Source: Candidatus Sigynarchaeum calidifontis (GTDB lineage: Archaea; Asgardarchaeota; Lokiarchaeia; Sigyniarchaeales; Sigyniarchaeaceae). Taken from it: a stretch of DNA of 17,719 bases. A model generated the notes under the pieces. That model worked only from the letters and a program-made list of their open reading frames with translations, ran no database searches and had not been told where the DNA came from. Below are positions 10,080 to 16,948 of the stretch, piece after piece; positions within the stretch are counted from its first letter, which is position 1, and each line of letters starts with the position of its first letter. A program made the translations under genes and the position numbers. The stretch lies in NCBI GenBank assembly GCA_030587475.2, contig JAUQYZ020000251.1, positions 1 through 17,719 on the forward strand. Reading direction: 5' to 3'.

Positions 10080-10313
10080 ATGGCAAGGAGCAAGGTATCC
10101 GTGGTCAACCGGAAGGGCATGATCACGATCCCGGCGGATATGAGGGAAAGGTTCAATTTACATGAAGGATCACGGGTAATCGTCATGGAAATCGATGGCC
10201 ATCTCGAGATCGTTCCAATCGTCGACATAGAGAAATTTAGAGCGCATTCTTATGCCGAATACTCGAAATCCGAAGACGAAACACGAGCGCTCGACCTGGA
10301 GCTAGAAAAATGA
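10080..10313 (+). CDS. vapB: AbrB/MazE/SpoVT-family antitoxin (VapB)
   Basis: VNRKGMITIPADMRERFNLHEG swapped-hairpin motif; stop overlaps the start of the PIN gene; TTTATAT box near 10021. Confidence 0.88.
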   Translation: MARSKVSVVNRKGMITIPADMRERFNLHEGSRVIVMEIDGHLEIVPIVDIEKFRAHSYAEYSKSEDETRALDLELEK

Positions 10314-10738
10314 CAGGAACCGCTTGCTTCGACGCGGGAGTCTTTTCAATCTTTTTCTCGAAGGAATGCACCGCGAAGGTCACGAACGTCATGCAGCAGC
10401 TAAAAAAGGGCTCGCTGGCCGCGCAAGTGGTTTCACCGGTCGTGACCGAGATTTTATACCACGCATGCACTACCGAAGGAAAGGAGCGTGCCCAAATTCT
10501 CGTGAGCTCGTTGCTAGAAGACTACAACATCCACGTGATAACTCCTGACCGGGCTCTCCTGTACTCTGCCGGTATTCTACGATGCCAGCACCGCACCGCG
10601 CTGTCATACATCGATTGTATGTCGATCGCACATGCATTGAAAATGGGCATTCCCTTTCACACGACGGAGAAGAAATTGAAACAGATACCCGGTAACGTGC
10701 TCCAGCGGCTGAAGGTTGTGAAATACGAGTTGCCTTGA
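10310..10738 (+). CDS. vapC: PIN-domain ribonuclease toxin (VapC)
   Basis: FDAG, VVTEI, LSYIDC, TTEKKL acidic PIN motifs. Confidence 0.88.
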   Translation: MTGTACFDAGVFSIFFSKECTAKVTNVMQQLKKGSLAAQVVSPVVTEILYHACTTEGKERAQILVSSLLEDYNIHVITPDRALLYSAGILRCQHRTALSYIDCMSIAHALKMGIPFHTTEKKLKQIPGNVLQRLKVVKYELP

Positions 10739-11974: not shown

Positions 11975-12050
11975 GGCCCGTTCGGATAGCCCGGTAATCC
12001 ACCTGGCCGTGGCCCAGGCGTCGGACGTTCAAATCGTCCACGGGTCACCA
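11975..12050 (+). tRNA. trnH: tRNA with GTG anticodon (His), atypical (C33, A73, no encoded G-1)
   Basis: GGCCCGT/ACGGGTC, CCTGG-CCGTGGC-CCAGG, GGACG-TTCAAAT-CGTCC, ACCA. Confidence 0.78.
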
Positions 12051-13083: not shown

Positions 13084-13207
13084 GCGCCAGTAGCTTAGCA
13101 CATGATCTCCATCCCGTCCTTGCCAAGCGAAGTGCCACGGAGATTACATCGGATAAAGCATTTGTTTCACGAGCAAATAATCGTTGGTTCGATTCCAACC
13201 TGGCGCA
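13084..13207 (+). tRNA. trnV: tRNA-Val(CAC) with a ~50-nt structured D-loop insertion (about 13100-13148) carrying the repeated RNA motif
   Basis: GCGCCAG/CTGGCGC, D stem GCTT/AAGC, TTTGT-TTCACGA-GCAAA, GTTGG-TTCGATT-CCAAC; insert closed by ATCTCC/GGAGAT. Confidence 0.82.
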
Positions 13208-14348: not shown

Positions 14349-14428
14349 GAGCTCGTCGCCTAGCCAGGCAAGGGCAGCGGGCTTTTAACCCGTCTAGTTT
14401 GCGAGTTCAAATCTCGCCGAGCTCGCCA
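14349..14428 (+). tRNA. trnK: tRNA-Lys(TTT), 7-nt variable loop
   Basis: GAGCTCG/CGAGCTC, GCGGG-CTTTTAA-CCCGT, GCGAG-TTCAAAT-CTCGC, GCCA. Confidence 0.9.
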
Positions 14429-14477
14429 TTCTTTCTACAAATTCGAGGTGATTGACCGAGTAAGCCAACATCCACGA

Positions 14478-14610
14478 GGGCGGCCGCCGCCGTGCATCCG
14501 GGCCCGTGTTTCCACAACTGTCCTCTCCGAGAGGTGCCGTGGAAACTACATCGGCCACAGACTGTGAATCTGCATAGCCTCCTTGCCCGGCACAAAGGCG
14601 GCGGCCGCCC
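14478..14610 (+). ncRNA. Candidate Y-RNA-like ncRNA A (133 nt)
   Basis: Perfect 14-bp terminal stem GGGCGGCCGCCGCC/GGCGGCGGCCGCCC, inner GTG/CAC and CCGGG/CCCGG, conserved motif 14505-14554, anticodon-like arm CAGA-CTGTGAA-TCTG. Confidence 0.72.
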
Positions 14611-14691: not shown

Positions 14692-14771
14692 GGGCTTGTC
14701 TCCTAGCCAGGCCAGGGAGGCGGACTCTTAATCCGCTCGTACCGCGAGTTCGATTCTCGCCAAGCCCACCA
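14692..14771 (+). tRNA. trnK: tRNA-Lys(CTT), 7-nt variable loop
   Basis: GGGCTTG/CAAGCCC, GCGGA-CTCTTAA-TCCGC, GCGAG-TTCGATT-CTCGC, ACCA. Confidence 0.9.
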
Positions 14772-15156: not shown

Positions 15157-15301
15157 GCATAGACGCAGCCGTGGACACGCGGAAGGGGGCCACGTGTTTC
15201 TGCATCCTGTCCTTCGCAAGGAGGTGCCGCGGAAACTACATCGTCACTCGAAAAGACGCTCCGGCCCCACACCGCGCCACAAGGGCTGTCTCGTGCAACC
15301 A
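15157..15301 (+). ncRNA. Candidate Y-RNA-like ncRNA B (~145 nt, ends in ACCA)
   Basis: Nested stems AGAC..AGCC/GGCTGTCT, GTGG/CCAC, GCGG/CCGC, GGGGCC/GGCCCC; conserved motif 15193-15243 with a compensatory change relative to ncRNA A and a GCAA tetraloop. Confidence 0.72.
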
Positions 15302-15388: not shown

Positions 15389-16948
15389 ATGGCAAGAAGC
15401 AAGTTCGGCAAGAAGGCTTCGATCGCGACCGACTATGGCGACGCTGACACCAGGAACTACGAGGCCTTCCCTGCCTGGTCGATGCCGCTCGACGAGCAAT
15501 TCCGCCAGCTCGCCTTCAACGGCATCATCGCGCACCAGTTCTACTGCAGCGAGGACGAGATCCTCCGGAGGGGCATGGGCATCATCGACAAGTTCGTCAA
15601 GGAAAACCCGGCGAAAGCGCTCGAGATCGCCGCGACCGCGCGCAACGAGGGCTTCATCCGTTCGGTCAACATCACCACGCTCGCCAAGGCAAGCACCAGC
15701 ACCGGGGCATTCAAGGAGTACTTCGACAAGATCGTCCTCACCCCGCGGGACATGGTGCAGTTCATCGACGTGATGCGCGCGAGCCGCGGCCTCGGCCGTG
15801 CCATCAAGGAGACCATGAACAAGTGGGTCGCGGCCAAGCTCGACGAGTTCTGGGCGATCAAGTATCGCAACCAGCTCCAGGACAGCATCCGGCTCGGTCA
15901 CGCCAAGTTCGACGACGAGGCCAAGGCCATGCTCGCCGACTATGTCATGGAGAACGGCGAGCAGGCGAAGCGCGACGCCATCGTGGCACGCTTCCCGGCC
16001 ATCAACGCGGTTGAAATGCTCAAGCGCATCAACCCGCTCGTCGACGAGGGTCGCGCCATCGATCTCATCACCGCGGCCCGCCTCGATTGGAACGTGGTCA
16101 AGGGCATCTTCCACCCGACCCCGGACATCTGGAAGGCCCTCGCGGAGCAGATGTCGGCCATTGCCCTCGTCCAGAACATCGCGTCGATCGAGAGGAACGC
16201 GGGCGCCGACTTCGCGCTCGATATCGTCAAGCGCAAGGTCACCGCGGAGTTTCTCAGGCGCGGCAAGGTCTTCCCGTTCACCCTCGCGCAGGCCTACATG
16301 CACGTCAACGACCGAGCCCTCAAGTCCGCCATCGGCAAGGTGCTCGACTCGCTGGCCCTCGCGCACGACTTCAGCAAGCTCGGCCGCGTCGCCGTGTGCC
16401 CGGACGTCAGCGGCTCGATGACCAGCCCGAGCTTCATCAACATCGTTATGCAACGTGCAAGCGGCAAAGGTGGCAAAGGTGACATCCCGGAGGGCAGCAT
16501 GCACGTGCCCATCCAGGTCGCGGCCATGATCGCGGGCATCCTCGCCGGCGCCACCCGCCACTCGCGGCTCCTCGCGTGGGACACCGAGGTCATGGACGAG
16601 CGCGCCCTCTTCGGCAAGGACAAGGAGTGGCGCACCCCGACCCGCATCATGGAGCGACTCATGCGCATCACCGGCGGCGGCACCTTCATGGAGGCCCCGG
16701 TCAAGTACCTCGTCGAGCACCGCGTCGACGTCGACACGTTCGTCCTCGTCACCGACTCGGAGGAGTGGGGCGAGGGTTGGCTCGCCTACTGGAAGAAATA
16801 CAAGCAGTCGCACAAGGCCGCGCGGGCGTTCCTCGTCAGGGTCGACCTCTACCCGACCCGCCCGTTCGGTGGCGACGACTGCGAGCGGCTTGGCATCACG
16901 CAGATCTACGGCTTCAGCGAGATGGCCTTCAAGGTCATGCTCCAGTAA
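15389..16948 (+). CDS. rsr: Ro60/Rsr-like TROVE-domain RNA-binding protein with C-terminal vWA domain
   Basis: N-terminal 'NYEAFPAW', QFY, 'ARNEG.IRS', 'GLGRAIK..WV', 'IKYRN..D.IRLGH', 'ALVQNI', 'VFPF' TROVE motifs; MIDAS DVSGSM, GGT, VTDSE; 519 aa. Confidence 0.9.
   Translation: MARSKFGKKASIATDYGDADTRNYEAFPAWSMPLDEQFRQLAFNGIIAHQFYCSEDEILRRGMGIIDKFVKENPAKALEIAATARNEGFIRSVNITTLAKASTSTGAFKEYFDKIVLTPRDMVQFIDVMRASRGLGRAIKETMNKWVAAKLDEFWAIKYRNQLQDSIRLGHAKFDDEAKAMLADYVMENGEQAKRDAIVARFPAINAVEMLKRINPLVDEGRAIDLITAARLDWNVVKGIFHPTPDIWKALAEQMSAIALVQNIASIERNAGADFALDIVKRKVTAEFLRRGKVFPFTLAQAYMHVNDRALKSAIGKVLDSLALAHDFSKLGRVAVCPDVSGSMTSPSFINIVMQRASGKGGKGDIPEGSMHVPIQVAAMIAGILAGATRHSRLLAWDTEVMDERALFGKDKEWRTPTRIMERLMRITGGGTFMEAPVKYLVEHRVDVDTFVLVTDSEEWGEGWLAYWKKYKQSHKAARAFLVRVDLYPTRPFGGDDCERLGITQIYGFSEMAFKVMLQ

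What the first reader, a model, noticed from the sequence alone, without database searches (positions are those of the whole stretch)
14478..14610. ncRNA A: 14-bp GC clamp, motif in a D-arm-like position and a His-type anticodon arm, no T arm
After the motif (flanked by GGCC/GGCC like a D stem) comes CAGA-CT GTG AA-TCTG, a canonical-looking 7-nt anticodon loop. There is no T arm, and the ends are locked by a perfect 14-bp GC helix. The order motif then anticodon arm is the same as in the tRNA-Val chimera. Inference: a tRNA-derived Y-like RNA that displays an anticodon loop, for example as bait or sensor for anticodon nucleases.
Basis: partly seen in the sequence, partly recalled or inferred. 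Interest (0 to 1): 0.8.

Follow-up and report, generated by a model that had tools for sequence, protein, structure and literature searches.

The report
Splice-excised Ro60-partner RNA in Asgard archaeon
This is a real, conserved small RNA gene in an Asgard archaeon, next to the gene for the RNA-surveillance protein Ro60. Its long GC stem carries the cut signal of the tRNA-splicing enzyme, so it is probably excised as a ~98-base (likely circular) RNA and may be the first archaeal counterpart of a Y RNA.

Summary
Window 14478-14610 (+) folds into a perfect 14-bp G-C helix that encloses a conserved hairpin motif and a 4-bp hairpin with a 7-nt loop. There is no T arm.

- 14-bp outer helix
- 3' bulge AAA
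- 4-bp helix GUGC/GCAC
- 5' bulge AUC
- 5-bp inner helix

Five orthologues, all after tRNA-Lys(UUU) and upstream of Ro60 genes 54-83% identical, keep this geometry with compensatory changes. The genome encodes EndA and RtcB. The predicted product is a 98-nt RNA (14498-14595), probably circular.

The motif was found only upstream of Ro60. There are 16 copies in six contigs, 3 of them in this 5-Mb genome, and none in about 200 related genomes.

Best reading (about 0.55): a tRNA-derived, BHB-matured Ro60 partner, analogous to a Y RNA. Ro60 binding and circularity are inferred; no RNA data could be obtained.

- The "His" anticodon is not conserved (GUG or GAA; one orthologue lacks the 7-nt loop).
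- The GGCC/GGCC "D stem" is not supported.

The scan already noted the Ro60/motif system on this same window.

The parts
14478..14491 (+). Outer (exon-side) helix h, 5' strand: GGGCGGCCGCCGCC
   Evidence: Pairs perfectly with 14597-14610. Five orthologues have different helix sequences, and 7 of the 9 innermost columns show compensatory changes.
14492..14495 (+). BHB central helix H, 5' strand: GUGC
   Evidence: Pairs with GCAC at 14590-14593. Orthologues have GUGC/GCAC, GUGC/GCAU and GUAC/GCAU (one A.C mismatch).
14496..14498 (+). 5' 3-nt bulge AUC; predicted cut after U14497
   Evidence: The bulge is exactly 3 nt in all five orthologues (AUC, AUC, AAU, AAC, AAU). The cut position follows from the geometry of canonical 37/38 tRNA introns (established knowledge).
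14499..14503 (+). Inner (intron-side) helix h', 5' strand: CGGGC
   Evidence: Pairs with GCCCG at 14585-14589. L016 has GAGAUG/CAUCUC and L014 has CGGGU/GCCCG. Four of 5 columns are compensatory.
14506..14553 (+). Ro60-linked motif. P1 = GUUUCCAC (14508-14515) / GUGGAAAC (14539-14546). Internal loop = AACU / C. P2 = GUCCUCU (14520-14526) / AGAGG-U-GC (14530-14537, bulged U14535). Conserved 3' tail = UACAUCG (14547-14553).
   Evidence: Model R1 gives 66 bits. There are 16 copies in 6 contigs, all upstream of Ro60. P1 has at least 8 different complementary sequences among the copies. P2 is 97% paired and nearly invariant in sequence.
14558..14572 (+). Anticodon-arm-like hairpin: CAGA / CUGUGAA / UCUG
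   Evidence: The stem covaries in 4 of 4 columns among orthologues. A 7-nt loop N-U-NNN-A-A is kept in 4 of 5 orthologues and in most paralogous copies.
14585..14589 (+). Inner helix h', 3' strand: GCCCG
   Evidence: See 14499-14503.
14590..14593 (+). BHB central helix H, 3' strand: GCAC
   Evidence: See 14492-14495.
14594..14596 (+). 3' 3-nt bulge AAA; predicted cut after A14595
   Evidence: The bulge is 3 nt in all five orthologues (AAA, AAA, AGA, AUA, AGG).
14597..14610 (+). Outer helix h, 3' strand: GGCGGCGGCCGCCC
   Evidence: See 14478-14491.
14498..14595 (+). Predicted excised RNA, 98 nt, probably circularised (A14595 joined to C14498)
   Evidence: The orthologous products are 98, 97, 97 and 95 nt. 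EndA and RtcB are encoded in the genome. Excision and circularity are inferred, not shown.
15389..16948 (+). Ro60/Rsr gene, the presumed protein partner
   Evidence: Pfam TROVE and vWA_Ro60 are both above cut-off. Matches D. radiodurans Rsr 2NVO at E 6.5e-10.

Best explanation
ncRNA A is a stand-alone RNA gene inside a polycistronic tRNA array of an Asgard archaeon.

Release. RNase P and tRNase Z do not release it. The tRNA-splicing endonuclease does. The 14-bp G-C helix, a 4-bp helix and a 5-bp inner helix frame two 3-nt bulges on opposite strands, which is a strict hBHBh' site. EndA cuts in both bulges. RtcB then joins the flanks and closes the excised 98 nt (14498-14595) into a ring.

What the product displays:
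- A conserved hairpin motif: a variable helix P1, an asymmetric internal loop, an invariant helix GUCCU..AGG(U)GC with a bulged U, and a 3' UACAUCG tail. This is most likely the docking site of the neighbouring Ro60 protein.
- An anticodon-arm-like hairpin, most likely a tRNA-mimic or effector module.

Functionally it would be an archaeal analogue of a Y RNA that regulates or tethers Ro60.

Shown here: the structure, its conservation and covariation, the exclusive genomic linkage to Ro60, and the presence of the processing enzymes.

Inferred: cleavage, circularisation, Ro60 binding, and the role of the anticodon-like loop.
For: BHB site:
- The geometry and polarity are canonical: 3' bulge next to the outer helix, 5' bulge next to the inner helix, 4-bp H, both bulges 3 nt (sequence). 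This fits the definition in PMC7714728 and PMC3978253.
- Five orthologues (window, L015, L014, L016, L013) all lie after tRNA-Lys(UUU). They keep the geometry while the helices change by compensation: outer 42/45 cells paired with 7/9 columns compensatory, inner 25/25 with 4/5, hairpin 2 20/20 with 4/4.
- The BHB-enforced fold is within 0-1 kcal/mol of the MFE, and it is the MFE itself in L013.
- G.U pairs in the helices fit the + strand.
- The genome encodes EndA (3 hits over cut-off; among the control genomes only archaea match) and RtcB.
- The paralogue ncRNA B (15165-15289) is also BHB-flanked, with identical flanks in five loci.

Linkage to Ro60:
- The 16 motif copies all lie on the Ro60 strand, 89-2235 nt upstream of Ro60, in six contigs whose Ro60 proteins are 54-100% identical.
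- Only the 3 window copies occur in the 5-Mb genome.
- No copies were found in 60 relatives or in 150 genomes of the phylum.
- A P2-like hairpin (GUCCUC-GAACAA-GAGGUG) overlaps the Ro60 ribosome-binding site.
- Distant Asgard Ro60 loci (36-39% identity) carry a P2-like GUCCCU..GAGGUGC inside a tRNA-like gene directly upstream of Ro60.

Literature:
- Bacterial Y RNAs are likewise encoded beside Ro60 and mimic tRNA (PMC4201824).
Against: - No transcript data.
- Loose BHB-like geometry is common by chance, at roughly 1.5 per kb per strand at minimal thresholds. The case therefore rests on helix strength and conservation, not geometry alone.
- The L014 central helix has one A.C mismatch.
- The motif does not contain the known Ro60 contact sequences (GGUCCGA in vertebrates, GNCGAAN0-1G in bacteria).
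- The motif is an internal capped hairpin, not the 5'/3' terminal stem.
- Linkage to Ro60 could in principle reflect shared membership of one mobile tRNA-array island rather than binding.
- The genome searches scored only a subset of candidates with strict filters.
- A divergent form in G019 was not detected by R1.
Confidence: 0.55

Rival explanations
1. Anticodon-nuclease bait or sensor. The RNA displays an anticodon loop that decoys or reports cleavage by a VapC/PIN-type or other anticodon nuclease.
For: - A 7-nt loop with U at position 2 and A at positions 6-7 is kept in 4 of 5 orthologues and in most paralogous copies.
- PIN-domain genes lie near the array (window 10310-10738; an RHH-PIN pair 1.7 kb downstream of Ro60 in L014).
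- An Rnl2-type RNA ligase follows Ro60 in L014, which recalls RNA-repair loci.
Against: - The 'anticodon' varies (GUG, GAA; GCU, ACU and UGU in paralogues) and mimics no single tRNA.
- L013 replaces the loop with 15 nt.
- Position 32 is A in two orthologues.
- The most conserved part is the motif, not the loop.
- No nuclease is consistently linked across the six contigs.
Confidence: 0.1
2. A processing or regulatory spacer that is not a Ro60 partner. The BHB-excised piece acts in cis, organising maturation of the polycistronic tRNA/Ro60 transcript, and the motif binds some other protein such as a tRNA-modification or processing enzyme.
For: - It sits between two tRNA-Lys genes with no evident terminator.
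- ncRNA B lies in the Ro60 leader and is also BHB-flanked.
- BHB introns in 5' UTRs are known (HVO_1309, PMC7714728).
- The motif also occurs inside tRNA-like genes.
Against: - A mere spacer would not need an invariant P2, a conserved UACAUCG tail and a conserved product length of 95-98 nt.
- The motif was not found in the other genomes searched, and only 2 of the 60 relatives have a Ro60 match.
- A P2 mimic sits on the Ro60 ribosome-binding site itself.
Confidence: 0.2
3. A decayed tRNA gene, or a piece of a split or permuted tRNA, with no function of its own.
For: - It lies in a tRNA array.
- It has an anticodon-like arm.
- Long GC-rich leader helices with BHB sites are used by split and permuted tRNAs (PMC3978253).
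Against: - There is no acceptor, D or T arm, and no tRNA hit even at E <= 10.
- Five orthologues are conserved with compensatory changes across Ro60 divergence down to 54%.
- The array already has a normal tRNA-His (11975-12050).
Confidence: 0.05

Closest known systems
Bacterial Y RNAs of the YrlA type with Ro60/Rsr (Chen et al. 2014, PMC4201824)
   Same: - A small RNA of about 100 nt, in one to several copies.
- Encoded on the same strand next to a Ro60 gene.
- Modular, with a presumed Ro60-binding element plus a tRNA-derived module.
- An RNA ligase and tRNA genes are often nearby.
   Different: - No Rfam match.
- The tRNA-like part kept here is the anticodon arm, whereas YrlA mimics the acceptor, T and D arms.
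- The candidate Ro60 site is an internal capped hairpin with a different sequence, not the terminal stem with GNCGAAN0-1G.
- Maturation is by BHB splicing rather than RNase P and end trimming.
Archaeal hBHBh' substrates of the splicing endonuclease: tRNA introns, 16S/23S processing stems, the HVO_1309 5'-UTR intron (PMC7714728), and circular or permuted RNAs (PMC3978253)
   Same: - Strict 3-4-3 bulge-helix-bulge geometry between two helices.
- A long processing stem like those of rRNA.
- The expected products are ligated flanks plus a circular excised RNA.
   Different: - The excised piece is neither a tRNA intron nor an rRNA.
- It is a conserved structured RNA of its own, with a Ro60-linked motif.
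Eukaryotic Y RNAs (Ro60 helix GGUCCGA with a bulged C; Stein et al. 2005 as cited in PMC4201824)
   Same: - A conserved helix with a single bulged pyrimidine, followed by 2 bp and an internal loop, read 5'-3' on the bulged strand.
- The tetranucleotide GUCC occurs in both, but here it lies on the strand opposite the bulged U.
- Similar size.
   Different: - The helix here is capped by a loop rather than closed by the RNA ends.
- The bulged base is U, on the 3' strand.
- The resemblance is recalled and inspected by eye, not tested.

Membership tests
Archaeal strict bulge-helix-bulge (hBHBh') splice site | Central helix of 4 bp | tested here: met
   GUGC/GCAC in the window. 19 of 20 cells are paired over the five orthologues.
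Archaeal strict bulge-helix-bulge (hBHBh') splice site | Two 3-nt bulges on opposite strands, in the polarity of tRNA introns | tested here: met
   AUC on the 5' strand next to the inner helix and AAA on the 3' strand next to the outer helix. The bulges are 3+3 nt in all five orthologues.
Archaeal strict bulge-helix-bulge (hBHBh') splice site | Flanking helices h and h' of at least 2-3 Watson-Crick pairs | tested here: met
   The helices are 14 bp and 5 bp. Both covary among orthologues.
Archaeal strict bulge-helix-bulge (hBHBh') splice site | Splicing endonuclease and ligase present in the organism | tested here: met
   PF01974 gives 3 hits over cut-off. PF01139 (RtcB) scores 569 bits.
Archaeal strict bulge-helix-bulge (hBHBh') splice site | Actual cleavage, and a ligated or circular product | not testable with these tools
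Y RNA (Ro60 partner RNA) | Encoded next to Ro60 and co-occurring with it | tested here: met
   All 16 motif copies lie 89-2235 nt upstream of Ro60 on its strand. None was found elsewhere in the genome or in about 200 related genomes.
Y RNA (Ro60 partner RNA) | 80-130 nt, with a long stem formed by the 5' and 3' ends that contains the Ro60 site (GGUCCGA or GNCGAAN0-1G) | tested here: not met
   The size fits (98-133 nt). However, the terminal stem is pure G-C and variable, and it lacks those sequences. The conserved candidate site is an internal hairpin.
Y RNA (Ro60 partner RNA) | Binds Ro60 | not testable with these tools
   Only indirect evidence is available: the genomic linkage and a P2 mimic at the Ro60 ribosome-binding site.
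YrlA (tRNA-mimicking bacterial Y RNA) and the other Rfam families | Match to the covariance model; T-arm and D-arm mimic | tested here: not met
   No Rfam hit on 14478-14610 at E <= 10. There is no T-loop sequence in the element.
tRNA | Cloverleaf with acceptor, D, anticodon and T arms | tested here: not met
   ARAGORN and RF00005 find nothing here. Only an anticodon-arm-like hairpin is present.

The most novel reading that the evidence does not exclude
Asgard archaea have their own Y RNAs. These would be a family of tRNA-derived Ro60 cofactors that share one docking hairpin and are matured in several ways: inside a tRNA D-loop, closed by an acceptor stem, or, as here, excised and circularised by the tRNA-splicing machinery. 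ncRNA A would then be the first circular Y-type RNA and the first RNA partner of an archaeal Ro60.
Probability: 0.4. Interest if true: 0.85.

Novelty: new variant of a known kind. Interest (0 to 1): 0.72.

Why it matters
Ro60 and its Y RNAs are known from animals and from some bacteria and phages. I found no description of an archaeal Y RNA in the searched library. The only archaeal mention there is a Ro60 gene in Asgard viruses, with no RNA partner named.

A conserved Ro60-linked RNA family in Asgard archaea, the closest prokaryotic relatives of eukaryotes, would give a testable handle on three questions:
- How Ro60 recognises its RNAs across the domains of life.
- Whether tRNA mimicry is an ancestral property of Y RNAs.
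- Whether the splicing endonuclease has stable non-coding RNAs as substrates beyond tRNA introns and rRNA.

The predictions are concrete: an exact circular junction, two cut sites, and a docking hairpin with one bulged U.

Tried and rejected
- Close DNA or protein relatives: the search for related loci found no relative in genome contigs or viral contigs and nothing new in metagenome contigs. The DNA search in four relatives hit only tRNA-Lys.
- Degenerate pattern scan for the motif in genome contigs and viral contigs: the pattern was too loose.
- MAFFT and RNAalifold on the motif copies missed P1 because the junction lengths differ. The model-fitted alignment kept the misregister, so P1 was analysed copy by copy.
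- A BHB in the tRNA-Val-like insert at 13096-13154: none found, even at relaxed thresholds. That copy is probably retained, not spliced.
- K-turn reading of the internal loop: rejected by eye, because there are no tandem G.A pairs.
- Minus-strand RNA: it folds even better (-85 kcal/mol). I rejected it because the G.U pairs in orthologous helices fit only the + strand, and all tRNAs and Ro60 are on +.
- Reading the circle as an acceptor-less cloverleaf (inner helix plus junction loop in the T-arm position): the loop has no T-loop sequence and the stem length varies, so I did not pursue it.

Full report
**Setting**

The window carries ordinary metabolic genes: HpaB, a URO-D family protein, a radical-SAM/B12 enzyme, a citrate-type transporter and a PIN protein. 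From 11.6 kb onward it carries at least 19 tRNA genes, all on the + strand. Inside this array lies a 519-aa gene at 15389-16948 with TROVE and Ro60-vWA domains. It is homologous to D. radiodurans Rsr and to vertebrate Ro60. Its closest database relatives are labelled Sigynarchaeota, Freyarchaeota and Promethearchaeota. The genome has a tRNA-splicing endonuclease and RtcB.

**Observation**

The finding at 14478-14610 lies between tRNA-Lys(UUU) (14349-14428) and tRNA-Lys(CUU) (14692-14771).
- The 14-bp all-G-C helix is real.
- The 133 nt fold far better than shuffles (z = -6.2).
- Neither ARAGORN nor Rfam sees a tRNA or any known family here.

**What the clamp is**

Reading inward from the 14-bp helix:
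- The 3' strand has a 3-nt bulge (AAA, 14594-14596).
- Then comes a 4-bp helix (GUGC 14492-14495 / GCAC 14590-14593).
- Then the 5' strand has a 3-nt bulge (AUC, 14496-14498).
- Then comes a 5-bp helix (CGGGC / GCCCG).

This is the strict hBHBh' motif of archaeal splicing-endonuclease substrates, as defined in PMC7714728 and PMC3978253. It also has the polarity of canonical tRNA introns. RNAfold draws a 6x6 internal loop instead, but enforcing the BHB costs only 0.3 kcal/mol.

A scanner of my own showed that minimal BHB-like geometry is frequent by chance, so geometry alone proves little. Two things carry the argument. This is the strongest such site in the window: among perfect sites with at least 6 outer and 5 inner pairs, the next-longest outer helix is 9 bp. 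And the site is conserved.

**Orthologues**

Contigs encoding Ro60 proteins 54-89% identical were fetched. Four of them hold an orthologue of the element directly after tRNA-Lys(UUU):
- L015 1243-1375
- L014 9219-9351
- L016 1121-1245
- L013 518-649

All fold alike.
- The outer helix has five different sequences: 42/45 cells paired, 7/9 columns with changes on both sides.
- The inner helix switches from CGGGC/GCCCG to GAGAUG/CAUCUC.
- The central helix stays at 4 bp, with one A.C mismatch in L014.
- Both bulges are always exactly 3 nt although their sequences differ.
- The predicted excised RNAs are 98, 98, 97, 97 and 95 nt.

The paralogue ncRNA B (15165-15289, in the Ro60 leader) is also BHB-flanked, with identical flanks in five loci. 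I conclude that these RNAs are released by EndA. As for other BHB products, they are probably circularised by RtcB. This last step is inferred.

**The motif**

A covariance model built from the copies (R1) finds 16 copies in six contigs. One of them was not in the seed. All are on the Ro60 strand, 89-2235 nt upstream of Ro60. It finds only the three window copies in the 5-Mb genome. It finds nothing in 60 relatives or in 150 genomes sampled across the phylum, with the caveat of strict filters.

Anatomy of the motif:
- P1 has at least eight different complementary sequences.
- P2 (GUCCU..AGG-U-GC, with a bulged U) and the tail UACAUCG are nearly invariant.
- A P2-like hairpin overlaps the Ro60 Shine-Dalgarno sequence.
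- In distant Asgard Ro60 loci (36-39% identity) a P2-like GUCCCU..GAGGUGC sits in a tRNA-like gene immediately upstream of Ro60.

This pattern is best explained if P2 is what Ro60 recognises. The motif does not contain the known Ro60 contact sequences, so membership in the Y RNA family in the strict sense is not met. The claim is functional analogy only.

**The anticodon-like arm**

A hairpin follows the motif in most copies.
- In the A lineage the loops are CUGUGAA, AUGUGAA, CUGAAAA and AUGAAAA. L013 has a 6-bp stem with a 15-nt loop instead.
- In paralogues the loops are CUGCUAA (twice), CUACUAA, CUUGUAA, and the true anticodon loops of the Val-like genes.

The order 'motif, then a 7-nt N-U-NNN-A-A loop' is thus a family trait and supports a tRNA origin. 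No particular anticodon is conserved, so 'His-type' is incidental. The GGCC/GGCC D-stem idea fails in the orthologues.

**Mechanism and rivals**

The best-supported model is a BHB-matured, probably circular, tRNA-derived Ro60 partner (about 0.55). The rivals are:
- A cis-acting processing or regulatory spacer whose motif binds another protein (0.2).
- A dead or split tRNA (0.05).

**Novelty**

The paper library holds bacterial and eukaryotic Y RNAs and one mention of Ro60 in Asgard viruses, but no archaeal Y RNA. I rate the finding a new variant of a known kind. The Ro60/motif system on this window was already noted by this scan. The BHB-excision reading of ncRNA A and its five-way conservation are what this report adds.

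Noticed in passing
window 15165-15289: ncRNA B, in the Ro60 leader, is also flanked by a strict BHB: GCAGCC|GUGG|ACA|CGCGG ... CCGCG|CCAC|AAG|GGCUGU. It predicts a 106-nt excised RNA. The flanks are identical in L013, L014, L015 and L017.
   Followed up: partly
window 14444-14473: A conserved box, CGAGGUGAUUGACCGAGUAAGCCAACAUCC, lies between tRNA-Lys(UUU) and the outer helix. It is kept in L015, L014 and L013 but not in L016. It contains an extended Shine-Dalgarno-like GAGGUGAU, equal to the 3' half of P2, with no plausible ORF behind it. Its role is unexplained.
   Followed up: no
L015 1386-1500: An extra tRNA-like gene, absent from the window. It has an intact acceptor 5' strand and D arm. 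The motif (R1, 55 bits) is inserted between the D arm and an anticodon-like arm with loop CUACUAA.
   Followed up: no
L013 858-933: A mini version closed by a 7-bp acceptor-like stem (AGUCUUG/CAAGACU) followed by ACCA. It has the motif and a short hairpin but no T arm and no BHB. This is a third way of packaging the same motif.
   Followed up: no
L020 7736-7885 and L022 7680-7835: In distant Asgard Ro60 loci (36-39% identity) a tRNA-like gene directly upstream of Ro60 carries several related elements: a P2-like GUCCCU..GAGGUGC element, GUUACUUCG, an anticodon arm (CUGCUAA or CUGGUAA), a normal T arm and a CCA end. L022 also has a GUCCUCU-AGAGA-GAGGUGA hairpin at the Ro60 start.
   Followed up: partly
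L014 11668-13514: In L014, Ro60 is followed by an Rnl2-type RNA ligase and an RHH-PIN pair. The window has a PIN gene at 10310-10738, just before the array. Asgard Nidhogg viruses are reported to encode Ro60 plus an RNA ligase.
   Followed up: no
window 15196-15236 (also L015 2014-2054, L017 111-151): In the B-type copies the motif itself can be drawn as a BHB-like fold (outer helix GUUUCUG/CGGAAAC, central helix CAUC/GGUG, a 20-nt 'intron'). This is not possible in the A-type copies, so it is probably coincidental.
   Followed up: no
L012 (G001 contig C193) 3665-8376: A same-genus genome continues the array after the Ro60 3' end with 20 more tRNA genes. Window plus continuation approach a full tRNA set in one array. 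The Ro60 5' part and the ncRNAs are not assembled there.
   Followed up: no
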